From the IMG/VR virus record IMGVR_UViG_3300032087_003094, positions 10,481-74,480 of that record: 64,000 nt of DNA; one strand, 5' to 3'. Below are positions 7,078 to 63,370 of this stretch, piece by piece. Every line of letters starts with the position of its first letter. Position 1 is the stretch's first letter. This DNA is from a virus. The translations under genes were made by a program, and so were the position numbers. Below the pieces are notes generated by a model. That model ran no database searches, was not told where the DNA came from, and saw only the letters and a list, made by a program, of their open reading frames with translations.

Positions 7078-9138
7078 ATGCTAACAGCTACAGACGTAAG
7101 AGACCTCCACGACAAAGCTTATACCCACGGACAAACAACAAGAGAAAAAGCGGCAGACGATTTACTGTTTTTTTGGTTAAGCCAGTGGGATGACACACAG
7201 CTAGGAGGCTCATCGCTTCAGTATCGTGGCCAATTCGATATGCTTCGAAAGGCTGCTCGTCAAATTATATCAGACATTAAAGCAAACCCAGTGCAGGTTG
7301 ACTTCGAGCCAATTGAAGACACTGACGAGTCAGGCGCAGACATTATTGACGGCATGTATCGTTCAGATATGCGTAACAATTCAGCATTAGAGGCAAGAGA
7401 AAACGCTATCACGGAATCAATTGTTTGCGGCGTTGGCGCATGGGAGCTCTACACTACCTATAAAACTAGACGAAACGGCGACAATCGACAGATAATCAAC
7501 CGCAGGCCGCTATTTGAAGCCAACAATCAAGTATTCTGGGATCCTAACGCAAAGCTTAATGACAAATCGGACGCTAATTACGTGTCGTGCTTGGTTGGGT
7601 ATTCAGAAGATGGATATAAGCAGCTTGTTAAAGAGTTAGGTGGCGATGAGGTAGATGATGTTCCTAAGTCGTTCGCATTTCCTGAGCACTCCTACGTTTT
7701 CCCATGGCTTACTGGAAACACCGATTATTACGTCACTCGATTCTATCATCGAACCAAGAAGAAAGTTAAGATATTCCTATTTGCTGATGCGATTGGTAGC
7801 GAGCAAGAGGTTAGAGAAGATGATCTCGACGATAAAGAAGACGAATTGATTGATAATGACTTTCAGTTAATCGACGAAATCGAAAAGGAAGTCTACGAGG
7901 TTAAGCTTTACATCGTGGGCGGCGGTGATGAGGTATTAGATTGCTCAGTTATACCTGGTGAGCATATACCAGTCATCCCCAATTACGGAGAAAGGGCTTT
8001 TGTTGAAGGTGAGGAGCATTACGAAGGTATAGTCAGGCTAGCAAAAGACCCTCAAAGGCTGAGAAACTTCCAGCTGTCCTATCTTGCAGATATTGTATCT
8101 AAGAGCCCGAGACAGAAACCTATATTCTTTCCTGAGCAGATACAAGGTTTCGAGTATATGTATGAAGAAGCTGGGGCTGATAACAACTTCCCTTACCAAC
8201 TTCAAAACATGAAGGACGCTAACGGAGACCCGTTACCAATTGGCGCTCAAAGTGTTATGCCTGAACAGCCAATGCCTCAAGCTCTTATCGCAAGTATACA
8301 AGCGTCAAGAGAAGCTATTAATGATGTAGCCAGTGAAGGTCTACCCCAAAATATTACTGATATGGATTTAAGTGGTGAGGCTTTAGTCCAAATAGAAAAA
8401 TTATTTGATAAGCAATCTTTTATTTATCAACACAACCTTAAAGCAGCTCTTAGGCGCGATGGTGAGGTTTATGCCTCAATGGCTTCTGTTGTATATGATA
8501 CAGAGCAAGAAGTCTCACTAGTTAAGCCTGACGGTGTAGCATCTAAAGAAGTTATCAATCAGCAGGAGATAGATCCAGAAACGCTACAACTTGTAGTCAA
8601 AAATGACGTCAAAAGTTACATATTTGACGTCTATGCCGACATTGGACCAAGCTTTCAATCCGTTAAAGAGCAGAGCCGCAAAGAGTTAAAGGAGATGATT
8701 AACAGTGAAGCCCCTGACAGTCCTATGCGTCAAATGATGCTGCTTGAATATATGACTATGATTGATGGTGTAGCGTTTAAATCAATGAGAGAGTACGCGA
8801 GGAATCAATTGGTGCTACAGGGTTATGCTGAACCTGAAACTGATGAAGAGAAGCAGATGCTTGCTCAACAGCAGCAATCACAACAAGAACAACCAGATCC
8901 AGCTCTATTGATAGCTCAAGCTGAAATGGGTAAGGCTCAGGCTGAGCAAATGAATGCTCAATCCAATATGATGGATACTCAAATAGATCAATATAATGCA
9001 GAAACTAGCAGGGCTAAAGTTATGGTTGATGCTAAAAAAGCGGATGCCGAGATAAACTTCAAGAACATCCAATCACAAGGCGCTCGAATAGACAACGTAA
9101 GAAAAGTCACCGGCGCAGACCTAAGGCAGAGAGCATAG
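7078..9138 (+). CDS. Portal protein, P22 gp1-like
   Basis: Follows TerL; 686 aa; GIVRLAKDPQRLRN; Gln-rich C-terminal barrel helix. Confidence 0.9.
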   Translation: MLTATDVRDLHDKAYTHGQTTREKAADDLLFFWLSQWDDTQLGGSSLQYRGQFDMLRKAARQIISDIKANPVQVDFEPIEDTDESGADIIDGMYRSDMRNNSALEARENAITESIVCGVGAWELYTTYKTRRNGDNRQIINRRPLFEANNQVFWDPNAKLNDKSDANYVSCLVGYSEDGYKQLVKELGGDEVDDVPKSFAFPEHSYVFPWLTGNTDYYVTRFYHRTKKKVKIFLFADAIGSEQEVREDDLDDKEDELIDNDFQLIDEIEKEVYEVKLYIVGGGDEVLDCSVIPGEHIPVIPNYGERAFVEGEEHYEGIVRLAKDPQRLRNFQLSYLADIVSKSPRQKPIFFPEQIQGFEYMYEEAGADNNFPYQLQNMKDANGDPLPIGAQSVMPEQPMPQALIASIQASREAINDVASEGLPQNITDMDLSGEALVQIEKLFDKQSFIYQHNLKAALRRDGEVYASMASVVYDTEQEVSLVKPDGVASKEVINQQEIDPETLQLVVKNDVKSYIFDVYADIGPSFQSVKEQSRKELKEMINSEAPDSPMRQMMLLEYMTMIDGVAFKSMREYARNQLVLQGYAEPETDEEKQMLAQQQQSQQEQPDPALLIAQAEMGKAQAEQMNAQSNMMDTQIDQYNAETSRAKVMVDAKKADAEINFKNIQSQGARIDNVRKVTGADLRQRA

Positions 9139-9149
9139 TTTCAATAAAT

Positions 9150-9258
9150 TTGCAGCTGGTACTTAATAGTTTTATACTATAGGTACTGGCGAGTGAGTAC
9201 GCAAACCCGAATATAGGCGGTCTTACCTATAGTTATCGTTCACTACGAGGATAATCAA
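9150..9258 (+). promoter_or_regulatory. Promoter and structured leader of the scaffold gene
   Basis: TTGCAG-17-TATACT; ACTATAGGTA/TACCTATAGT inverted repeat (9176-9185/9224-9233); small hairpin over the GAGG RBS. Confidence 0.55.
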
Positions 9259-10308
9259 GTGGAAACATTATCGTTAAGCGAGCTTAAAGCTCAAAACGAG
9301 GCTGCTGAACAGCCTAAAGATACACCGGAAGATGAGTATGTTGAGGTGGATAACGAAACTTTAGAGCCGATTGAGGTTGAGGAACCCGAAGAGCTAGAAG
9401 TTGAAGAAGAAGCTGAGACTGATGACGAAAAGTCAGAACCAGAAGGTGAATTGGAAGACTGGCAGAAGACCGAAGACGATAATAAAAGCGGTTTCATTCC
9501 AAGCGCTGAAGCTAAACATCTACGTCTAAAAAACAAAGATTTAAAGGCTCAGAAAGAGGAAAGAGACGCCGAGCTAGAAGAGCTTAGACAGAAAGTTGAA
9601 GCCTTATCTAATCAACCCAAGAAAGCTGAGGATGTTTTACCTCCAAGGCCGGTATTAGAGGATTATGATTATGATGAGAAGCTTCATGGTGATGCGCTTG
9701 AGGCGTGGTTTGATAAAAAGATCGAGTTAAAACTTAACAAAGGTCTCGAGTCAACCCAGCAAGATAGGGCTAAACAGCTTGAAATTGAAGCGGCAAACAA
9801 AGCTCGGGAAAATGCAGTTCATGAGCATTTAAACAAAGCAAGCAAATTAATTGCTGAGAAGAAGATAACCCAAGACGCTTGGCTAGCTGGAGATTTATTA
9901 ATCCGGCAGACTTTGGATCAAGTGTTTCCAGGTTCAGGCAATGAAGTTGCAGATCAATTTGTCTCACTCATGGAAAGCAATGGCGAAGGTAGCGAGAAAG
10001 CTTGGTTTTACTTAGGCAGAAATCCTAAAGCCCTTAATGAGTTCAAAGACAAACTAATGAACGACAAGACAGGCGCTAGCGGAGTTATGTATTTAGCTAA
10101 GATTCAAGAGAAAGCCTCAAAACCTCCACGTAAAAAACGTAGTGACGCACCAAAACCAGCAGCGGAACTCAAGGGTGACGCAGCAACCGGAACAGCCAAG
10201 TCATTAAAGAAGCAATATGACAAAGCGGTAAAGGATGGCGACACTCAAGGCAGAATTGACGCCAAGAGAGCAGCCAAAAAAGCTGGTGCAGATGTGTCCA
10301 AATGGTAA
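9259..10308 (+). CDS. Scaffolding protein, P22 gp8-like
   Basis: Between portal and coat; acidic N-terminus, coiled coil, basic C-terminal helix-turn-helix. Confidence 0.85.
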   Translation: METLSLSELKAQNEAAEQPKDTPEDEYVEVDNETLEPIEVEEPEELEVEEEAETDDEKSEPEGELEDWQKTEDDNKSGFIPSAEAKHLRLKNKDLKAQKEERDAELEELRQKVEALSNQPKKAEDVLPPRPVLEDYDYDEKLHGDALEAWFDKKIELKLNKGLESTQQDRAKQLEIEAANKARENAVHEHLNKASKLIAEKKITQDAWLAGDLLIRQTLDQVFPGSGNEVADQFVSLMESNGEGSEKAWFYLGRNPKALNEFKDKLMNDKTGASGVMYLAKIQEKASKPPRKKRSDAPKPAAELKGDAATGTAKSLKKQYDKAVKDGDTQGRIDAKRAAKKAGADVSKW

Positions 10309-25092: not shown

Positions 25093-25272
25093 ATGATAAA
25101 GAAAAGAGGTCCAAAACGATTAACCGAGGATGAGCGCAGAAAGCGATTTCAGATGGTTGTATCGCCAGCTACATCAGAGTGGCTAGAATCTCAACCTGAG
25201 GCCGCTGGAAGGGTTGTAGATAGGTTGGTAGAGAATCATCGAATCAAACAAGACTACGACAGTAAGGGGTAA
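25093..25272 (+). CDS. Small ribbon-helix-helix-like regulator (59 aa, not in ORF track)
   Basis: MIKKRGPKRLTEDERRKRFQMVVSPATSEWLESQ; GAGGAG RBS. Confidence 0.6.
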   Translation: MIKKRGPKRLTEDERRKRFQMVVSPATSEWLESQPEAAGRVVDRLVENHRIKQDYDSKG

Positions 25273-26665: not shown

Positions 26666-27668
26666 ATGAAAATAGAAACGAGAGCAACTTTATATGATTG
26701 GGTAGAGTTTAAGGTTGAATGTGGTAGCACAGTAATTAACGAGGATATTCATCCAGAGCAGGCGGCCGACCTAATTGAGCAGCTTGAAAGCGCTATAGAC
26801 GATCTAAAAGGGCTAGCTAGAGAGGTTGATGTTGAAGAGATATTCGCAGGGACCAGAAAGAAAGTCGAATCTTTAAATATTAGAGGATAACAAACAATGA
26901 GCATAGAAAACCATAAGTGGAGTGATGAAGATTTAAGTCTTTTTGACACCTCTGAATCTGAATATGCAGGGTTATTATTTAGCCTAAGATGCAATTCTAT
27001 CATGAGTTCGTTTAGCGATTTTTACATCAACAAACAAGACGCCATAGCTATAGCCAAACACTTTAACGTAGACAATGAGTCTCTAGTGGAGGGTATAAAG
27101 GAGTTGATTAACTCTGTTGACTGCTCGTCTTGCTGCCCAAACACAGAGGTATTCTCAATTGACGACCTACAAAAACTAATAACTAAGGAGGATATAGAAG
27201 AATGAGTAATGTAATAGAGTTTCCGCAAACTGATGTTGAGTATATATTCAACAGTACTGGCGAAATTGTAGAGTCAATTATCATCGATTTATCAAGACTA
27301 AAAAGCATCGAACTAAGAAGGGATGAGTCAGACGAAGTCAGAGGCCGCATAACTAGACTGTGTATTGCTTGGCTAGCTTTAGAGAATCCAGAGGTATTAA
27401 ATTTTGATGATGAATTAAATGAGGAGGATGGAGAGTGAATGATATAGAGTTTATTATCTTGTGGTTTTTGTCTGGATTTTTGCCATTTTTATTATCAGGG
27501 ATTGTGATGGAATCAAGAAGCCCTAAAATTGATTTTGAGTTGGTGTCGCTTTCGATTTTGTCTGGCGGCTTTGGATTTTTATCGTTTTTTTTATTTTTTC
27601 CAGTATTTATATTTATTTGCTTCCAAAGGGTATTCTTTTTTATTAATGATAGGAGGGCTAGACAATAA
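26666..27668 (+). CDS. Four small hypothetical genes (26666-26890, 26897-27205, 27202-27438, 27435-27668 membrane protein)
   Basis: Good RBSs; 26897 and 27435 have homologues at 61958 and 62441. Confidence 0.7.
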
Positions 27669-27686
27669 CCAAGAATGAGGTATAAT
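27659..27686 (+). promoter_or_regulatory. Sigma70-like promoter of the non-coding cluster
   Basis: TAGACA-16-TATAAT, identical in the second copy (62664-62691). Confidence 0.7.
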
Positions 27687-27692
27687 TAAAAG

Positions 27693-27829
27693 GCTGATTG
27701 AAACCGGCGTCAAGAATCACAAAACGAGAAAGAGACTTTAAGTAAGAATCCAGAAGCCTAGTTGTTAAATCGTTTTGTGTAACTAGAGATGCTTGTTTCA
27801 ACTGGGTTCTTTCTTAAGGTCTTTTTTTT
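27693..27829 (+). ncRNA. P4-CI/P1-C4-like antisense/attenuator RNA, copy 1
   Basis: Long interrupted stem ending in U8; loop TCGTTTTGTG pairs with CACAAAACGA 27718; bulge GTTTCAA pairs with TTGAAAC 27698; compensatory changes in copy 2. Confidence 0.7.
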
Positions 27830-27851
27830 CGCCTCAAGTTTCCTCAGTAAA

Positions 27852-28350
27852 TAGATGATATATGTGGTGGAGTTAGTTGTAACCGTGGCGCGCGGATATA
27901 GTTACATGCTGGCAATGGCCTTATTCAGTTGACTAGACCGGCCTAGCTCCCCTTCATATATCATCTACAATTAGCATATCAACGACCACTTGTCACAGAT
28001 TGGGTTTAAGTCCCTTTTGGAGATAACTGGCGGGAATATTAATTCCGACGATGCCGTTTCAATAGGTGACGTTGATATGCTAATTGACAAGTCCTTAAGA
28101 ATTTAGATTCTTGTTCAGCAAAAAATGAAAATGAATGCCTATAGCTAAAGGCTTTAAACAGCAAATTTACAAAGTTTTACATTTTCTACTTATCACTACG
28201 ACATTTAGACCGTGGACAAAGCAGGTTAAGTTGATGTGCCAACTATCTTAAGCTGGATATCGGAGCGACAACTCTAAAAACTGTTCTGCATATTGAGAGT
28301 GATAAGAATATAGATTTACCTTTATATCAACTAAAGGTCTAATGACCACT
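27852..28350 (+). ncRNA. Tandem stem-closed structured RNA-like domains, copy 1
   Basis: Closing stems 27852-64/27955-67 (13 bp), 27968-84/28070-86 (17 bp), 28189-97/28298-306 (9 bp); no ORF. Confidence 0.55.
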
Positions 28351-28370
28351 ATTAACTAAAGGAAAACAAT

Positions 28371-28628
28371 ATGAAAGTAGAAGAAACACTGAAAGAGCGA
28401 GGAGAGCGATACGGAAGCTTTGATGGTTATGCACTGCAATTAGAAGCATTGAAAAATGCGGTTGATTTGGAGGCTTCGTCACTTAATTGTGTGCACAAAG
28501 CCGGAATGGAGATGATATTAACTAAAATAGCTAGGATTATGAATGGCGATCCTGATTATGTTGATAACTGGCATGATATAGCTGGATATGCAACATTGGT
28601 AGAAAGAGATATTGAAAAGAATTTTTAA
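28371..28628 (+). CDS. DUF6378-like phage protein
   Basis: TLKERGERYG..KIARIMNGDPDYVDNWHDIAGYA; copy at 63604. Confidence 0.8.
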   Translation: MKVEETLKERGERYGSFDGYALQLEALKNAVDLEASSLNCVHKAGMEMILTKIARIMNGDPDYVDNWHDIAGYATLVERDIEKNF

Positions 28629-29354: not shown

Positions 29355-29453
29355 TATAATACATATACGCGGCTAGGTTTAGCGACCGAAAAACAAACCC
29401 CTTATTTGTTTGCCGCTCATATTTCATAAGGGCTGATGCTAAAGGAGCGTTAA
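29355..29453 (+). ncRNA. C4-like two-loop antisense RNA with downstream targets at the RBS
   Basis: TATAAT; GCGGC/GCCGC closing stem; TTTAGC and CCCTTAT in the two loops are complementary to GCTAAA 29438 and ATAAGGG 29426, next to AAGGAG. Confidence 0.7.
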
Positions 29454-31308: not shown

Positions 31309-31884
31309 ATGAAAACAACATTAGGTAAGATTTGGGAGTTCGGTCCTTGCTGTAGAGAGGATGAGTCTGGCGGGTGGGGTTTGCTAACTAAAAACTTAGG
31401 AACTAGCGATCACTCAAAAGAAGTTGATTTGATGGAAATATTAAAATCAAACGGAATTAAAGATGCAGTTTGGGCTTTAAGATGTTTTGATTATCTTGAT
31501 TATTGCCTTTTTCTTGCTGATGTTGCAGAAAGCGTACTTGATATTTATGAGAAGAAAAACAGTTCAAGCGCTCCGAGATTAGCAATTCAGGCAGTTAGAG
31601 ATTATAAGGCTGGAGGTATAACAAAAGAAAAATTACGATCTGCTGCTGATGCTTATGCTGCTTATGCTGCTGCTGATGCTTATGCTGCTGCTTATGCTGC
31701 TGATGCTGCTTCTGCTTATGCTGCTGCTTATGCTGCTTATGCTGCTGATGCTGCTTATGCTGCTGCTGATGCTGCTGCTGATGCTTCTGCTGCTGCTGAT
31801 GCTTCTGCTGCTTATGCTGATGCTAGATCAAAAAAATGGGATGAAATAGAACAATTATTCATTAAGCATTTTGGAGATAAATAA
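31309..31884 (+). CDS. Phage protein with Ala/Tyr/Asp low-complexity tract
   Basis: ILKSNGIKDAVWAL and PRLAIQAVRDY motifs plus (AADAY)n. Confidence 0.8.
   Translation: MKTTLGKIWEFGPCCREDESGGWGLLTKNLGTSDHSKEVDLMEILKSNGIKDAVWALRCFDYLDYCLFLADVAESVLDIYEKKNSSSAPRLAIQAVRDYKAGGITKEKLRSAADAYAAYAAADAYAAAYAADAASAYAAAYAAYAADAAYAAADAAADASAAADASAAYADARSKKWDEIEQLFIKHFGDK
31640..31824 (+). repeat. GCT/GAT/TAT/TCT codon-level tandem repeat
   Basis: About 185 nt of nNT triplets, mostly GCT. Confidence 0.9.
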
Positions 31885-38624: not shown

Positions 38625-38874
38625 AGGTATTTGGTTAAAGGTGGCGGCATTCTTCGCAGCATTAAGTGGTATTCTGTTAGTTTGGGGTAGGCGCCAGCAA
38701 AGCCAAAGAGAAAAGGCAGAGCATGAAGTAAAAATCAAAGACACTATCGAAGAAATCGACGCAGAGCAGGAATTATTCGAGCAGGAATTGAGAAAAGATG
38801 AACAAAAACGAATTAATCAAAAGGTTAAAAACAGCCAGTTTGCTAGTAGGCGTGATCGCGCTTCCAAGTTGTAG
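38617..38874 (+). CDS. Inner-membrane spanin (Rz-like)
   Basis: N-terminal TM plus coiled coil; overlapped by a lipoprotein gene. Confidence 0.65.
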   Translation: MLKGIWLKVAAFFAALSGILLVWGRRQQSQREKAEHEVKIKDTIEEIDAEQELFEQELRKDEQKRINQKVKNSQFASRRDRASKL

Positions 38875-39079
38875 CAGTTTAGAAATAGCTCATAGCGACC
38901 TAAATTGCGTACTATATCCTGATAAATCACTTGCTGATAGAATGAGTGATGAAGAATTAAACTCAATGTCTGACGAAGTGTTTAATAAGGTAGAGATTCA
39001 TATAATCAGCTACCAAGAGCGCATGAATACTCAATGTGAAGCAATTAAGAAGCATAATCAATTACACGGTGATAAATAA
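38798..39079 (+). CDS. Outer-membrane spanin lipoprotein (Rz1-like)
   Basis: Signal peptide with lipobox-like IALPSC; overlaps the i-spanin. Confidence 0.65.
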   Translation: MNKNELIKRLKTASLLVGVIALPSCSSLEIAHSDLNCVLYPDKSLADRMSDEELNSMSDEVFNKVEIHIISYQERMNTQCEAIKKHNQLHGDK

Positions 39080-39534
39080 TGGCTCAAGGTGATTTTCAAC
39101 TTTTTGAAGAATTTGCATTAAGTCTTGGTAGGGGTGACCACGACCTAACTAGTGACACTATTTCTGTAATTCTGATAACTACACTCCCTACAGCCTCCGA
39201 CACAACGCCAGACAGAGCCGATTATACAGAATGCTCAGCTGGAGGAAGTTATGCAACAGGCGGTATAGCTTTAACTAGAACTTACACTGAATCGGGCGGG
39301 GTCGGAACCTTTGACTTTACTAATGATCCAGAGTGGGCGGCAGCGGCATCAAGTCCAGAAAACATTAAAGCGGCTCTATTTGTTAACGATACGCACACCG
39401 GAACGACCGACGCTATAGGCTTTACAGATCTAACTACCGACAACGGAACGACAGCCATCTCAATGGTGGCAGGCAAAATAAAAGTTGTTGCCAATCCGTC
39501 TGGAATGTTTACTGTAACGGTAAACGCCGCATAA
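39079..39534 (+). CDS. Small virion beta-protein, paralogue of 41611-42033
   Basis: HDLTSDTI..L, TECSAGGSYATGG, NDTHT vs HNMGSDTL, TEISAGNGYTAGG, NDTPT. Confidence 0.65.
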   Translation: MAQGDFQLFEEFALSLGRGDHDLTSDTISVILITTLPTASDTTPDRADYTECSAGGSYATGGIALTRTYTESGGVGTFDFTNDPEWAAAASSPENIKAALFVNDTHTGTTDAIGFTDLTTDNGTTAISMVAGKIKVVANPSGMFTVTVNAA

Positions 39535-39535
39535 A

Positions 39536-41611
39536 ATGGCTTTTGTTTCTGGGGCTACCACCAACCCATCAGCATCCTACAACCCTGCTAGCGGCACTAA
39601 TACAATGCTTGTCTGGGTTACTGGTGCTACCGGTGTCGGTACGGCTACAGTTAGCGGTCAAGATTTTGGTGGGACTTCAATGTCCGAGATTGCCAATTCT
39701 GACCAATCAGTCGATTTAGCGGGTAGTGGTGATCCTACAATTGCATCAGCCTTCCTATTAACTCCAGGAACAACAAGCCAAACCTGCTCCCTAACATGGT
39801 CTAGCTCTCGCCTAAACGAAGGCGGCTATGCGTTCACAGTGGGCGATGCTGGAAGTATAACCGGAACATCAGGTGGCACTTATTCAGGTTCAGGAACTAC
39901 CGAGCCAAGCTTAAGTTACGATGCAGAGGACGGTGATACAGTTGTTTATGTTAGGCAGCATTGCCGCGGTGGTGGGGCTATATCATGGACAGCGCCGACC
40001 AATTTCACGGAAAGGTCAAATATCGCTCTAGTTACAAGTCCTGGACGTCGCTCAATGGCTGTATGGACTCGAGATGTAACAAGTACACTATCTGGCCAAA
40101 CAGTTCAAGCAGGCGAATCAGCAGACGGTAACGGCGTTCATCATGTATTCGTTATTAAAAAATTCTCATCTGATGTGACAGCTAATATGACACTAGAGAC
40201 TATCTCAATCGATAGTTTTAACATGTTTGTACTGGCATCAAATATAGCCTCTCTAATCAACACAGTAGACAATTATGAATTAGTCGGAAGTGGAGTGTCT
40301 AATTTTGGCGCAGGAGGCTCAAATACCTCCGATGCTACCTATAGGGATGAAACTGACGAGCTAATCACTATTAGAAATGGCAGTGCAACAGCTGATGTTT
40401 ATGATTTGGGAAGTTACGGCACTGCAACAAAAACCATCACGCTAAACTTTGACGGCTCAGATTGTGAAGGTATTTGCGATATGGGTGGCGGTGAGTTTGC
40501 TACTTGCTCAGAGGATGGTGGAAGATACCAATTTAATATCTATGATTGGCCTAGCGACGTAGGAACGACCGCAACCAGCAAGCAAGAATTCACAATAGCC
40601 GCTAATGCCGCTAATAACAACAGTCAGCTGGAGGGGATTGGTTACGACCGAGCAAACAAGATATTTTATTTGGTCGGCGAAGGTGAAGAAACTAGTACGG
40701 ATAGGGAGTTTTTTAAGGTCTTGCGCCCCGGGGTTAATGGTCGTTTTGGTGATACGTCTACTAGTTATGCTTACAATGATGCGGATGACGGTGACGGATG
40801 GTCGCTAGATGATTATATTTCTCAGCCTTGGGACCCTGAAACGGCTTTTTCATCGTATGGCGCAACGGGTGCGACGTTTGACTTGTCGAGTATTGACTTT
40901 GATCACGATTCTGGCAATGTTTTAATCGCCTCGCACACAGGTCAAAAGGTTTTGCAGGTTGATGTTACTGACGGTTCAGTAGTTGCTGAGGTAGACAATA
41001 CAGACCTAACCCAAATGGAAGGAATAGCAATACTTCCAGATGGCAAGCTGATGATGATGGGTGAAGCTGACGAGTATCAAATATTCGAATCAATTACCAC
41101 AATTAACATGACTACTGCAACAATGACAATTCAAGGGCATAATATGACCATTGAAACGGCTGTTGCGGAAGTTATGACGGCTGATTCAGGCAGTTATTCA
41201 ACAACAGGAACAGATTTAGACTTAAGGGCTGGTCGAAAAATATCAGCTGATAGCGGTGCCTACTCTACAACTGGAACAAATATAGACCTAGTTGGAGCGT
41301 TTAAGTTGCTGGCCGAGGCTGGGAGCTACTCAGTATCAGGAACTGATGCAGCTTTATCTAAAGGCTCTCGCCTAGAGGCTGAAACTGGTTCATATTCTTA
41401 CACTGGCACAGCTTTAGATTTAGATATTGCTGCAAAAATGACTTTAGATAGTGGATCTTATATAATAACCGGAACAGATATATCTCTTTTAGATGGCGAA
41501 AGCCTCTGGACAGACACAGCTATTACAGAAGTATCTTGGGCAGATACAGCCTTAGATGGCTCTACTTGGACAGATACAACAAGCACGTCAACAACTTGGA
41601 TTGATTTATAA
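39536..41611 (+). CDS. Fibre/decoration-like protein: N-domain, YjiK-like propeller, ADSGSYxxTG repeats, Trp-repeat tail
   Basis: Combines domains found in separate genes at 1-1079 and 1080-3065. Confidence 0.65.
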   Translation: MAFVSGATTNPSASYNPASGTNTMLVWVTGATGVGTATVSGQDFGGTSMSEIANSDQSVDLAGSGDPTIASAFLLTPGTTSQTCSLTWSSSRLNEGGYAFTVGDAGSITGTSGGTYSGSGTTEPSLSYDAEDGDTVVYVRQHCRGGGAISWTAPTNFTERSNIALVTSPGRRSMAVWTRDVTSTLSGQTVQAGESADGNGVHHVFVIKKFSSDVTANMTLETISIDSFNMFVLASNIASLINTVDNYELVGSGVSNFGAGGSNTSDATYRDETDELITIRNGSATADVYDLGSYGTATKTITLNFDGSDCEGICDMGGGEFATCSEDGGRYQFNIYDWPSDVGTTATSKQEFTIAANAANNNSQLEGIGYDRANKIFYLVGEGEETSTDREFFKVLRPGVNGRFGDTSTSYAYNDADDGDGWSLDDYISQPWDPETAFSSYGATGATFDLSSIDFDHDSGNVLIASHTGQKVLQVDVTDGSVVAEVDNTDLTQMEGIAILPDGKLMMMGEADEYQIFESITTINMTTATMTIQGHNMTIETAVAEVMTADSGSYSTTGTDLDLRAGRKISADSGAYSTTGTNIDLVGAFKLLAEAGSYSVSGTDAALSKGSRLEAETGSYSYTGTALDLDIAAKMTLDSGSYIITGTDISLLDGESLWTDTAITEVSWADTALDGSTWTDTTSTSTTWIDL

Positions 41612-60210: not shown

Positions 60211-60417
60211 GTGAACAATACGAGACGTCCAAACAATGTAAGAAAAATTAGGAGAGCGCAAGATTTTACGTTGCAATCCCTGGCTGATATGGTCGGCACT
60301 AGTAAAAGCTATATTCACGATTTAGAGAATGGAAATATTAGAAGTCCATCCCTAGGTAAGGCTAGATTGATAGCTATGAATCTTAATTCAACAGTTGACG
60401 AGGTATTTCCACAATGA
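60211..60417 (+). CDS. XRE/Cro-family HTH regulator
   Basis: TLQSLADMVGTSKSYIHDLENG..PSL. Confidence 0.9.
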   Translation: MNNTRRPNNVRKIRRAQDFTLQSLADMVGTSKSYIHDLENGNIRSPSLGKARLIAMNLNSTVDEVFPQ

Positions 60418-62683
60418 ATAACGAACAAGATAACGCAACAGAAGGTCAAGTAAGCCTACTGTGTTTAGCTGGCATAGGTTTACTGTTTTGGCTGATTGGG
60501 CTTGGTTTAATATGGTTTATAGGGTGGTTAGTGTCATGAGAACTATTCAGAGCAGAATACAGCACTGCAAAAACAGAGTTCCTATCGCGGCGCCAAAGAC
60601 CGAGGAAAGCGCAAAACTTCAAGCTGATGTGGATGCATGGCTAGCGAAGGGTAACGAGATTTACGACGCTGATAAAAAAGAGGCTAATTTTAGGAACGAC
60701 ATTGAAAAATCCAGAGCCTACAAAAAACGCACCAAGCCAGTGCTAAACCTATCTATGTGGCGCTTTAGAGACGAGGATACCATCCTAACCACTAAAGATA
60801 TGGTAAGGGTTTTAGAGTGCTCCAGCGATTGGGTTGTGACCGAATACACTAAAAAGCATCTTATTCCAGCGCCCTACAAAATCAGAGATTTAGATGGGAA
60901 GGTAAAAATAACCAAGCAAAACCACAACGCCAACTATTGGAAGTTAGGCGATTTAATCAAACACAATAAGGAGTTATCGAAATGAATAATGGAGATATGC
61001 CAATAAATGCCACATCGCCAAACAAGCATCAACCAGAATGGGCAGCGGCTAGAGTTGGAGGCCTAACCAAGAGAGAGTATTTCGCAGGGCTGGCCATGCA
61101 GGGCATGCTATCAAGTTCGGATTACGCCACATCCACATGGAATACTGTGGCTATAGAGGCTGTAGAGGTCGCAGACGCACTACTAAAGGAGCTAGAAAAA
61201 TGAGGCAGTCAACTGAACTAAGCAACTTAGTCGCTAAACACCTGCAAGGTCAAGTGCCACCTACAGTAGTTAATGAATTTAACAAGCTAATTGTAAAAAT
61301 GCGTAAAGATGAGTCGACCATTGCGGACGCTGTGGAAAAATTAGAAGTTATCCACAACCCTCAAGTTGGAGTAAATAACTTAAACGACGAAATACTCAAG
61401 GGGAAGCTCTTTGAAATTTAGACTTGAATCGCTCGTAAAGAGCTACAACAAGCCTAAGAAGCACGATATTGAGAAAGATGTAGAAGTTATCGATTTAGAA
61501 GAGAAAACGCCGTCAGAGGCCGATTTCGAGCTTGCTGATGCTATGATAGAGTATTATAGGGAGGAATTATGAAAGATTTGTTACCAGCGTTGATCCTTGT
61601 TTGGCTTGGGGGTTTTTTCTTCGGGGGCGCTGTTTTTGGTGATTTTGAAAAACCCAAGCAGCCTACATGCCAAAGCGAATTCAACCAGAAAGTTAAATCA
61701 ACCAGTATCGAGCATGGTCAAGATATCCCACACAAGGGAAAGCGGCCTAATCGAATAGTAATTGAATGTGAGGGTAGGTAGATGCTATTTAATAACGCTG
61801 CAAAGGGTAGGTTAATGAGCGGATTTGACGCTGAATTTATTGAAGCATCATCTCGCGATCTTGCTAAAAGAGAGATTGAAGACTTCGAGCTTGATTTATT
61901 CAACGCTAAAATTAGATCTATACAGCTTGCAAATTTAAAGAAAAAGGATAACAAACAATGAGCATAGTAGAGTATGATTTTAGCGATGATGAGTTAAATT
62001 TCATTAATTGTGATTCAGATGTAATCCAATTAGAGGCTCTTGGGTATAGCGATTGTTATGATAATGAATGCTTCATTGACATCAGAAAACAAGACGCCAT
62101 AGCTATAGCCAAGCACTTTAACGAGGATAGGGAGTCTCTAGTGGAGGGTATAAAGGAGATGATTTACAAACTTGAAAATAAGACGCGTGGAGGGGTAAGT
62201 TTGCAGGCGTTAATGACTCAGCACTCACAAACAGATGAATTTATTGGCGACCTACAAAAACTAATAACTAAGGAGGAATAGAAGAATGAAAGCCAATATG
62301 ATAGTTAGGATTTTAGGCGCTATAGCGTTGATGTATTTTGTTTATCAAGAGACTGGCTGGGCTACAACTATTTGCTTGTCGTTTATCACTCTTCAGGTTG
62401 AGCTTTCAGAGTATATCAACAAGTTAAGGAGGAATAGAGAGTGAATGATATAGAGTTTATTATCTTGTGGTTTTTGTCTGGATTTTTGCCATTTTTCTTA
62501 TCAGGGATTGTGATGGAATCAAGAAGCCCTAAAATTGATTTTGGGTTGATCTTGCTTTCGATTTTGTCTGGCGGCTTTGGATTTTTATCGTTTTTTTTAT
62601 TCTTCCCAGTATTTATATTTATTTGCTTCCAAAGAGCATTCTTTTTTATTAATGACAGGAGGCTAGACAATAACCAAGAATGA
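60414..62683 (+). CDS. Second mosaic copy of the early small-gene run (60414-60539, 60536-60985, 60982-61203, 61200-61421, 61569-61781, 61958-62281, 62441-62683 and others)
   Basis: Gene-by-gene similarity to 25276-27668 with swaps and insertions. Confidence 0.75.
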
Positions 62684-62698
62684 GGTATAATTAAAAAC

Positions 62699-62844
62699 GC
62701 TGAAATGAGACGCAGCAAAGATTTAAAAACACACAAACAGATAATAGAAAGACTTTAAGAGAACTCAGAAAGCCTAGTTGTAATTCGTTTGTGTGTAACT
62801 AGATCAAGCTTGTCTCAACTGGGTTCCCTTAAGGTCTTTTTTTT
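62699..62844 (+). ncRNA. P4-CI/P1-C4-like antisense/attenuator RNA, copy 2
   Basis: GTTTGTGTGT (62787) pairs with ACACACAAAC (62729); GTCTCA (62812) pairs with TGAGAC (62706); U8. Confidence 0.7.
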
Positions 62845-62866
62845 CGCCTCAAGTTTCCTCAGTAAA

Positions 62867-63370
62867 TAGATGATAAGAATACAACAGCCAGTCCTGGGCA
62901 GCGAACGTGACTTAAAAAGGCCCACTTATATCATCTACAGTTAGCATATCAACGACCACTTGTCACAGATTGGGTTTAAGTCCCTTTTGGAGATAACTGG
63001 CGGGAATATTAATTCCGACGATGCCGTTTCAATAGGCGGCGTTGATATGCTAATTGACAAGTCCTTAAGAATTTAGATTCTTGTTCAGCAGAAATGAAAA
63101 TGAATGCCTATAGCTAAAGGCTTTAAACAGCAAATAACAAACTAATTTTTTCTGTCTCTAAGTTACGACTTTTGAGGGTGAGGATAAAGCAGGTTAATGT
63201 TGACATATTTGCCAATAACACGAGATTTAACAAATCAATAATCGGGCAAGGTCGGGGCGACACCCTAAAAATGTTCTGCATATCGTGAGCTTAGAGAATA
63301 ACAGAGAGAGGGTAAACTAAGTAGATCTTATTATAGGTCAACTCAAACCCTCATTAGACAACCTATAACT
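62867..63370 (+). ncRNA. Tandem stem-closed structured RNA-like domains, copy 2
   Basis: Stems 62867-75/62929-37, 62938-54/63040-56, 63155-68/63283-97. Confidence 0.55.

What the first reader, a model, noticed from the sequence alone, without database searches (positions are those of the whole stretch)
27693..27829. CI/C4-like RNA switch with co-varying specificity between the two units
Seen: after a shared promoter, site X lies in the loop of a small GCTG/C(G/A)GC hairpin and site Y follows; a long terminator-like stem then shows Y' in its apical loop and X' in a bulge. Copy 1: TTGAAAC/GTTTCAA and CACAAAACGA/TCGTTTTGTG. Copy 2: TGAGAC/GTCTCA and ACACACAAAC/GTTTGTGTGT. Both pairs changed together while the scaffold stems were kept, with G-U pairs favouring the + strand. 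Established: P4 CI and P1/P7 C4 RNAs use loop/bulge pairing, and base changes there define immunity groups. Inference: RNA-based immunity or attenuation in a phage with no evident CI repressor; unlike P4, I find targets only upstream.
Basis: partly seen in the sequence, partly recalled or inferred. Interest (0 to 1): 0.8.

Follow-up and report, generated by a model that had tools for sequence, protein, structure and literature searches.

The report
Address-coded terminator-switch leader RNA in phages
At the start of the early genes of a small group of marine phages sits a roughly 140-base RNA that can fold either into a transcription stop signal or into a competing shape, and the short matching stretches that build the competing shape differ in every phage type, which suggests an RNA-only, type-specific gate on early gene expression.

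Summary
Behind a near-consensus sigma-70 promoter lies a 140-157 nt RNA. It has a 5' hairpin with site X in its loop, a single-stranded site Y, and a long imperfect hairpin followed by eight U. That hairpin shows Y' in its apical loop and X' in a 3' bulge.

I found six different X/X' and Y/Y' sets in eight related ~35 kb marine podophage genomes. Pairing is kept in every set.

In cis they build a long alternative helix that excludes the terminator. This helix is about as stable as the terminator and is the best fold until the last 3' arm is made. The element is therefore a two-state transcription attenuator. It sits between the only strong promoter and the early operon (DUF6378, methylase, Erf, SSB, NinG).

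It matches no Rfam family, C4/CI included, and no second target exists in any genome. The module is a divergence hotspot that swaps as a cassette at its exact RNA ends. This favours, but does not prove, type-specific control in trans by the terminated leader RNA, as in P4 CI.

This scan has noted analogous, sequence-unrelated 'kissing-loop terminator leaders' in other phages. No expression data exist.

The parts
27659..27686 (+). Promoter of copy 1 (TAGACA-16 nt-TATAAT). The same 29-nt promoter stands in 7 of 8 related genomes.
   Evidence: 11 of 12 matches
27693..27708 (+). P1 hairpin at the 5' end of the RNA (GCUG/CGGC), with address site X (UUGAAAC, 27698-27704) in its loop
   Evidence: opening cost 0.0 kcal/mol
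27718..27727 (+). Single-stranded address site Y (CACAAAACGA)
27733..27822 (+). Long imperfect terminator hairpin (34 pairs, 4 G-U, about -31 kcal/mol)
27770..27779 (+). Y' (UCGUUUUGUG) in the apical loop, complementary to Y
27795..27801 (+). X' (GUUUCAA), a 7-nt bulge on the 3' arm, complementary to X
27822..27829 (+). U8 tract that ends the short leader RNA
27831..28370 (+). About 540 nt of ORF-free, partly conserved structured spacer. A read-through transcript must cross it before the first early gene.
   Evidence: no other + strand promoter-like site in it
28371..28628 (+). First gene downstream (DUF6378). Erf, SSB and NinG genes follow in the co-assembled sibling genome.
62664..62691 (+). 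Promoter of copy 2 (identical hexamers and spacing)
62696..62845 (+). Copy 2 RNA. P1 62699-62716 with X UGAGAC at 62706-62711; Y 62729-62738; hairpin 62749-62837 with Y' 62787-62796 and X' 62812-62817; U-tract 62837-62844. Its minimum-energy fold is the antiterminator.
   Evidence: identical RNA in L007

Best explanation
The element is a promoter-proximal leader RNA that works as a two-state transcription attenuator at the head of the phage early operon.

Terminator fold. The long hairpin plus U8 stops RNA polymerase and releases a ~140-nt RNA.

Antiterminator fold. The leader (X in the P1 loop, Y, and the bases between them) pairs with Y', X' and the neighbouring 3'-arm bases. This loops out the 5' arm and leaves the last 3' arm and the U tract single-stranded, so polymerase reads on into the spacer and the early genes. 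Y' is transcribed before the 3' arm, so the antiterminator nucleates first and read-through is the default.

Inferred step. The terminated leader RNA accumulates and displays Y' and X' unpaired. It binds X and Y of nascent transcripts of the same address type, blocks the cis antiterminator and forces termination. That would give RNA-only negative feedback, or immunity, on early transcription. Only phages with the same X/Y code would be affected, and this would select for new codes.
For: Shown in silico:
- An 11/12 sigma-70-like promoter stands 4-7 nt before the P1 hairpin. In L030 an unrelated 10/12 promoter ends 7 nt before the same hairpin.
- The hairpin plus U7-8 architecture recurs in all 6 variants, at -28 to -38 kcal/mol.
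- In growing transcripts the leader:Y'-X' helix is the minimum-energy fold (-31 to -37) until the last 3' arm appears. For copy 2 it is the global minimum.
- The two states are close in energy in copy 1, copy 2 and G002: -33/-37, -37/-32 and -36/-35.
- Cognate leader-plus-hairpin chimeras gain -10 to -18 kcal/mol, against about 0 to -8 for non-cognate ones. Only 0-3 of 200 shuffled leaders do as well.
- Loop-only duplex matrices are dominated by the diagonal.
- All four sites cost <= 3 kcal/mol to open in the terminator fold.
- G-U pairs make the fold + strand specific.
- No other + strand promoter-like site lies between the terminator and the first gene.

Favouring trans specificity:
- The RNA module of copy 1 vs copy 2 is 77% identical, against 95-98% for its flanks.
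- Identical RNA cassettes sit behind different promoters and flanks (G003 vs L030).
- The same promoter precedes different cassettes, and contig breakpoints in seawater runs fall at the RNA's 5' edge (27691-27693) and 3' edge (27827-27840).
- At least five codes come from one sample.

Precedent:
- P4 CI RNA pairs with seqA/seqC of its own leader to cause termination, and IsrK acts in trans on its own read-through transcript (PMC4825925).
- In the pLS20 attenuator the antiterminator forms by default, and an oligonucleotide against it promotes termination (PMC13401043).
Against: - There is no RNA or expression data of any kind.
- Only six distinct variants exist, all from a few seawater samples. 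MAFFT/RNAalifold could not align the address sites, so covariation rests on per-sequence folds and my own duplex calculations.
- The full-length terminated RNA carries its own X and Y. It could fold back on itself, since the alternative fold is as stable, and so be inert in trans unless it is processed or kinetically trapped.
- The time window for trans binding is only ~50 nt of transcription.
- For the two group-2 variants (L033, L034) the chimera test was not significant (21 and 39 of 200 shuffles), although their loop pairings are cognate-best.
- Cassette mosaicism is common in phages even without selection on specificity.
Confidence: 0.45

Rival explanations
1. Purely cis attenuator. The same two folds exist, but the choice is set by something other than RNA in trans. 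Candidates are polymerase speed or pausing, temperature, a phage or host RNA-binding protein that stabilises P1 or the conserved GCCUAGUUG/AACUAG top of the hairpin, or an RNA chaperone. X/Y differences would be neutral compensatory drift plus module exchange.
For: - The nested order X..Y..Y'..X' and the extended leader:3'-arm helix explain everything in cis.
- No second target exists anywhere in five genomes.
- The pLS20 zipper attenuator works in cis with an unknown trigger (PMC13401043).
- Conserved scaffold motifs (GCUGA at the 5' end, the top of the hairpin) could be protein sites.
Against: - A cis-only switch gives no reason for the module to diverge far faster than its flanks (77% vs 95-98%).
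- It gives no reason for the main pairing sites to sit exactly in the unpaired loop and bulge of the terminator fold.
- It gives no reason for many codes to coexist in one sample.
- There is no conserved ligand-type core and no Rfam riboswitch hit.
Confidence: 0.3
These would be self-dimers or rings, as in phi29 pRNA loops, or a compact pseudoknotted fold. It would serve a job other than gating transcription, and the hairpin plus U tract would simply be its terminator.
For: - All four sites are exposed in the hairpin fold.
- A 5' terminal hairpin and a 3' terminator hairpin are typical of stable sRNAs.
- In G003 the linker between Y and the hairpin base is ~18 nt, long enough to reach the apical loop.
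Against: - In copy 1 the linker is ~6 nt, too short to reach a loop ~30 bp away without melting the stem (geometric inference).
- Pairing extends well beyond the loops into the 3' arm.
- The phages have ordinary terminase genes.
- There was no pRNA or other Rfam match.
Confidence: 0.1
3. Origin-linked RNA. The promoter and folded RNA feed transcription into the 540-nt spacer to prime or activate replication. The address-coded pairing would act as a ColE1-like copy or incompatibility control.
For: - No replication initiator, helicase, primase or polymerase was recognised among the ORFs scanned; only Erf, SSB and NinG were.
- A long conserved structured spacer follows the RNA.
- Address-coded loop pairing is how ColE1-type plasmids set incompatibility (own knowledge).
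Against: - No iterons, DnaA boxes or AT-rich unwinding element were seen by eye in the spacer (no motif search was run).
- GC skew gives no origin signal.
- Many small ORFs have no annotation, so a replication protein may simply be unrecognised.
- No antisense promoter is conserved.
Confidence: 0.07
4. DNA-level element (cruciform, packaging or recombination site) or chance complementarity.
For: The region lies in a long non-coding stretch near where several assemblies break.
Against: - G-U pairs make the fold strand-specific.
- A promoter and a U tract frame it precisely.
- A 10-nt complement recurs with different letters in six variants, against ~0.1 expected per 64 kb.
Confidence: 0.03

Closest known systems
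Satellite phage P4 immunity: CI RNA (seqB) pairing with seqA and seqC of its own leader (summarised in PMC4825925). By my recollection also N15 CA RNA.
   Same: Regulator and target lie on the same-sense leader transcript from one promoter. Short complementary stretches decide whether transcription of the early or replication genes stops. Base changes there would define specificity groups. No protein repressor is needed.
   Different: There is no match to the Rfam C4/CI model. Targets lie only upstream of the regulator. The regulator is the intrinsic terminator hairpin itself, and the same sites form a complete cis antiterminator. Processing and trans action are untested here.
P1/P7 c4 antisense RNA (Rfam RF01695; a'/b' loops with a1/b1 and a2/b2; own knowledge)
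   Same: Two separate recognition sites are displayed in unpaired regions of a folded RNA. Upstream copies of the targets lie in the same transcript.
   Different: c4 blocks a downstream ribosome-binding site (a2/b2 at icd). Here there is no downstream target and no RBS involvement. The fold is different and there is no CM match.
Zipper-type attenuator cATT of plasmid pLS20 (PMC13401043)
   Same: A leader attenuator at the head of a long mobile-element operon. Terminator and antiterminator are near isoenergetic, the antiterminator forms first by default, and blocking it with a complementary oligonucleotide promotes termination. The trigger is unknown.
   Different: In pLS20 a central long stem persists and is extended by an upstream weak hairpin pairing with the terminator. 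Here the leader pairs with the apical loop and 3' bulge of the terminator hairpin and expels its 5' arm. The pairing letters here are hypervariable between close relatives.
Countertranscript-driven attenuation (pT181, pIP501, pCF10 Anti-Q; cited in PMC2879508, PMC13401043)
   Same: A small RNA would bind the nascent leader through loop contacts and tip it from antiterminator to terminator. Loop letters would set specificity or incompatibility.
   Different: Those regulators are transcribed from the opposite strand. Here no conserved antisense promoter exists, and the complementarity is built into the sense strand.
Gifsy-1 IsrK (PMC4825925)
   Same: The short RNA made by termination and the long read-through RNA come from one promoter. 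The short form competes in trans with its own cis copy inside the long form.
   Different: IsrK activates translation of a downstream ORF. It belongs to the C4/SeqA structural family, and this RNA does not.

Membership tests
C4 antisense RNA family (Rfam RF01695: P1/P7 c4, P4 CI and relatives) | Match to the family covariance model | tested here: not met
   No hit at gathering score on the whole window. No hit at E <= 10 on 27400-28450 or at E <= 1 on four relatives' loci.
C4 antisense RNA family (Rfam RF01695: P1/P7 c4, P4 CI and relatives) | A target copy downstream of the regulator (a2/b2 at an RBS; seqC) | tested here: not met
   Y and Y' each occur once per genome in G000, G002, G003 and G004. 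One-mismatch hits are at chance level.
C4 antisense RNA family (Rfam RF01695: P1/P7 c4, P4 CI and relatives) | Regulator and upstream target lie in one same-sense transcript, with recognition sites in unpaired regions | tested here: met
C4 antisense RNA family (Rfam RF01695: P1/P7 c4, P4 CI and relatives) | Processing (RNase P) to a ~77-80 nt RNA that acts in trans | not testable with these tools
   No RNA run holds the sequence.
Terminator/antiterminator leader attenuator | Hairpin followed by a U tract directly behind a promoter and ahead of genes | tested here: met
   The simple terminator scan missed it because the loop exceeds its 8-nt limit.
Terminator/antiterminator leader attenuator | A mutually exclusive alternative fold of similar energy that forms earlier during transcription | tested here: met
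   (in silico only)
Terminator/antiterminator leader attenuator | Both folds kept across relatives by compensating changes | tested here: met
   Six variants with different letters. Chimera matrix. A formal alignment-based count failed.
Countertranscript (antisense) attenuation, pT181/pIP501 type | Regulator RNA transcribed from the opposite strand of the leader | tested here: not met
   No conserved - strand promoter faces the leader. - strand folds are weaker.
Zipper-type attenuator (pLS20 cATT) | A central long stem kept in both states and extended by an upstream weak hairpin pairing with the terminator | tested here: not met
   Here the 5' arm of the terminator is expelled and only small local hairpins remain inside the alternative helix.
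Riboswitch | A conserved ligand-binding core upstream of the expression platform | tested here: not met
   There is no Rfam hit. The leader is the least conserved part, and the RNA modules as a whole are only 52-77% identical.

The most novel reading that the evidence does not exclude
The terminated ~140-nt leader is a trans-acting, address-coded immunity RNA. It would shut the early operon of any incoming or co-infecting phage that carries the same X/Y code and ignore others. That would give protein-free heteroimmunity groups in marine podophages that have no integrase or CI repressor. New codes would arise by paired mutations (copy 1 vs copy 2) and spread as cassettes.
Probability: 0.35. Interest if true: 0.8.

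Novelty: new variant of a known kind. Interest (0 to 1): 0.62.

Why it matters
RNA-only control of phage early transcription is known from a handful of enterobacterial elements (P4, P1/P7, N15). This element would be an unrelated, uncatalogued solution in marine P22-like phages. In it the terminator hairpin itself carries the address sites, and the same sites build the antiterminator.

The six natural address codes on a shared scaffold make a ready orthogonality panel. They make the cis-versus-trans question directly testable with simple termination assays. If trans action holds, the element would explain how phages with no detectable integrase or CI-type repressor set early-gene timing or exclude close relatives. 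It would also offer a compact set of orthogonal RNA transcription gates.

Tried and rejected
- Rfam: no C4/CI, pRNA, riboswitch or other family covers the element.
- More homologues, DNA patterns: searches of metagenome contigs and genome contigs found nothing.
- More homologues, protein anchors: searches in viral contigs returned only the same eight contigs.
- More homologues, distant DUF6378 loci: these lack any similar leader.
- Prophage relatives and host: genome contigs gave no prophage relative, so the host is unknown.
- No RNA holder is listed among public runs. Only DNA contigs could be laid, so nothing can be said on expression or RNA ends.
- RNAalifold on a MAFFT alignment failed to align the address sites and gave only a 10-pair stub. 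I therefore relied on per-sequence folds.
- Second targets: none beyond chance.
- Leader peptide: short frames exist in some variants (AUG in copy 2 and G002, read). They have no shared start, frame, peptide or Shine-Dalgarno, so I rejected this.
- Conserved antisense promoter: none.
- GC skew as an origin signal: flat and uninformative.
- G001 leader: the contig ends inside it, so it was not counted as a variant.

Full report
**What is there**

The window is bases 10481-74480 of a 74.5 kb viral record. The record consists of two different ~39 and ~35 kb phage genomes joined head to tail: record bases 1-999 recur at 39457-40447 and the record's end matches 38825-39247. All relatives are single ~35 kb contigs.

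In copy 1 a promoter TAGACA-16-TATAAT (27659-27686, 11 of 12 matches) is followed by an RNA with these parts:
- a small hairpin, GCUG/CGGC, with X = UUGAAAC in its loop;
- a single-stranded Y = CACAAAACGA;
- a 90-nt imperfect hairpin (27733-27822) and U8.

The hairpin's apical loop holds Y' and a 7-nt bulge on its 3' arm is exactly X'. Copy 2 (62696-62845) has the same layout with X = UGAGAC and Y = ACACACAAAC. Each Y 10-mer occurs in the window only as Y and Y', where shuffles give about 0.1 matches. The hairpins carry 2-5 G-U pairs and fold 4-11 kcal/mol better on the + strand.

**Relatives**

Pattern and protein-anchored searches of IMG/VR found seven further contigs, all from two seawater-type samples. 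They yield six distinct complete RNAs:
- copy 1;
- copy 2, identical in L007;
- G002;
- G003, identical in L030;
- L033;
- L034.

A seventh is cut off by a contig end.

Every complete variant has a 5' hairpin, a long hairpin plus U7-8 of -28 to -38 kcal/mol, and cognate X/X' and Y/Y' pairs with different letters:
- G002: GUGGUG/CACCAC and GAAACAAGAU/AUCUUGUUUC.
- G003: UCGUAC/GUACGA and AGUUCACG/CGUGAACU.
- L033: X is UGU-AGAAAG, pairing with the bulge through one bulged A.
- L034: X is UGU-GGUAG, with the same geometry as L033.

Duplex energies between leader sites and loop or bulge sites are best on the diagonal of the 6 x 6 matrices. The exceptions are explained by a long purine-rich G003 leader and by stem bases of L033/L034. 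In the terminator fold all four sites cost no more than 3 kcal/mol to open.

The sites are nested: X, Y, Y', X'. In cis they form one long helix, and pairing runs beyond X and Y along most of the leader and the upper 3' arm. Folding of growing transcripts shows that this helix is the minimum-energy structure (-31 to -37 kcal/mol) in all four group-1 variants. It stays so until the last 3' arm is made, and only then does the terminator win. In copy 2 the alternative fold remains the global minimum.

With the last 12 nt of the 3' arm held open, the alternative state lies within a few kcal/mol of the terminator state in three variants: -33 vs -37, -37 vs -32 and -36 vs -35. In chimeras, cognate leaders gain -10 to -18 kcal/mol and foreign leaders about 0 to -8. 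Only 0-3 of 200 shuffled leaders reach the cognate value in group 1. The test is weak for L033 and L034.

The alternative fold leaves the U-proximal arm unpaired, so it is an antiterminator. Y' is transcribed before the 3' arm, which makes read-through the kinetic default. That last step is inference.

**Context**

No other + strand promoter-like site lies between the terminator and the first gene 540 nt downstream. The genes that follow are early functions:
- DUF6378;
- a DNA methyltransferase;
- HNH-YopX;
- Erf;
- SSB;
- NinG.

After these come lysis genes and a P22-like packaging, head and ejection set. No integrase or S24-type repressor was recognised among about 60 ORFs scanned. One 68-aa HTH_3 protein lies 2.3 kb upstream of copy 2. 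The host is unknown. The sequences come from seawater metagenomes, and the Erf/SSB genes are nearest to those of Vibrio phages.

**Cis or trans?**

The attenuator reading needs no trans factor. Three things point to selection on specificity.

First, the RNA module is a divergence hotspot. Copy 1 and copy 2 are 77% identical in the module, against 95% and 98% in the flanking 229 and 168 nt. The X and Y changes between them are paired: A-U becomes G-C in X, and Y and Y' carry a matching one-base insertion.

Second, the module behaves as a cassette.
- An identical RNA sits behind an unrelated promoter in L030. That promoter also ends 7 nt before the 5' hairpin.
- Contigs from seawater runs break at the RNA's edges. 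A G002-type cassette follows the copy-1 promoter at 27691, a copy-1-like cassette follows the L030-type promoter at 27693, and different sequence follows at 27827-27840.

Third, the strongest pairing sites sit exactly in the unpaired loop and bulge of the terminator fold. That is the arrangement used by RNAs that must find partners quickly.

The precedents are P4 CI RNA and IsrK (PMC4825925), antisense-driven attenuation (PMC2879508), and the pLS20 attenuator. In pLS20 the antiterminator forms by default and an oligonucleotide against it promotes termination (PMC13401043). My model is that the terminated leader accumulates, binds X and Y of nascent same-code transcripts, and forces termination.

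Against this model:
- The released RNA carries its own X and Y and may fold back on itself.
- The binding window is short.
- No RNA data exist.

I put the two-state attenuator at about 0.75 and the trans step at about 0.45.

**Family membership**

The element is not a member of the C4/CI family. There is no covariance-model match and no downstream target. It is not a countertranscript system, because no conserved antisense promoter exists. It is not the pLS20 zipper geometry either. It works like these systems but is a separate, uncatalogued RNA.

This scan's own notes describe analogous 'kissing-loop terminator leader RNAs' in gut and rumen phages. They share no sequence with this one. Such gates may therefore be widespread in phages.

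**Verdict**

- Observation: confirmed.
- First reading: partly supported.
- Novelty: a new variant of a known kind.
- Interest: moderate to high, because the six natural codes make the open cis-versus-trans question directly testable.

Noticed in passing
window 29366-29432 (+): Rfam int-alpA RNA (RF02996) at 46 bits, above its gathering score. It lies in the early region between two small ORFs. Another first-reader note (e1-6096379) says its loops and targets differ between the two genomes.
   Followed up: partly
window 27852-27968 and 62852-62938; L007 about 8150: A variable insert sits just behind the terminator. It is closed by an inverted repeat TAGATGATA...TATCATCTA and has unrelated interiors in the two copies. 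In L007 the insert is absent and the flanks abut.
   Followed up: partly
window 27970-28087 (copy 2: 62940-63057): A ~115-nt non-coding domain closed by a 14-bp stem (TTAGCATATCAACG...CGTTGATATGCTAA). It is 98% identical between the copies and is also present in L005 and L007. It has no Rfam match.
   Followed up: partly
L005 884-998 (-): In G002 the spacer behind the switch holds a 115-nt match to the Rfam tRNA model (39.9 bits, above threshold) that ARAGORN does not call. It may be a tRNA with an insertion or a tRNA-like element.
   Followed up: partly
L030 about 8778-9260 (+): In this relative an ORF occupies the spacer between the switch and the early genes. By eye it resembles a homing-endonuclease-type protein. 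It was not analysed with any tool.
   Followed up: no
window 60211-60417 (+): A 68-aa Cro-like HTH_3 protein directly after the tailspike gene of unit B. The ORF at the matching place in unit A (25093-25272) has no Pfam hit.
   Followed up: partly
whole record (G000 1-74480): The record is two different phage genomes head to tail (A about 1-39456, B 39457-74480). Its first kilobase recurs at the junction. All relatives are ~35 kb, so the 74.5 kb molecule is probably an assembly chimera.
   Followed up: partly
window 31610-31843 (+): A run of 9-nt tandem repeats (GCTGCTGAT/GCTTATGCT type) inside ORF 31309-31884 encodes a low-complexity Ala/Tyr/Asp stretch.
   Followed up: no
run X5 ('organism A'), laid on window 27971-28375: A 35.9 kb contig at depth 151 in a small 2021 data set shares the conserved spacer but not the copy-1 RNA cassette. 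It may be a cultured relative with another address code.
   Followed up: no
window 27698-27704 / 62812-62817 and 62706-62711 / 27795-27801: Cross-pairing between the two codes is asymmetric. Copy 2's X can pair with copy 1's X' through a G-U wobble (-6.4 kcal/mol). Copy 1's X pairs poorly with copy 2's X' (-2.5).
   Followed up: partly
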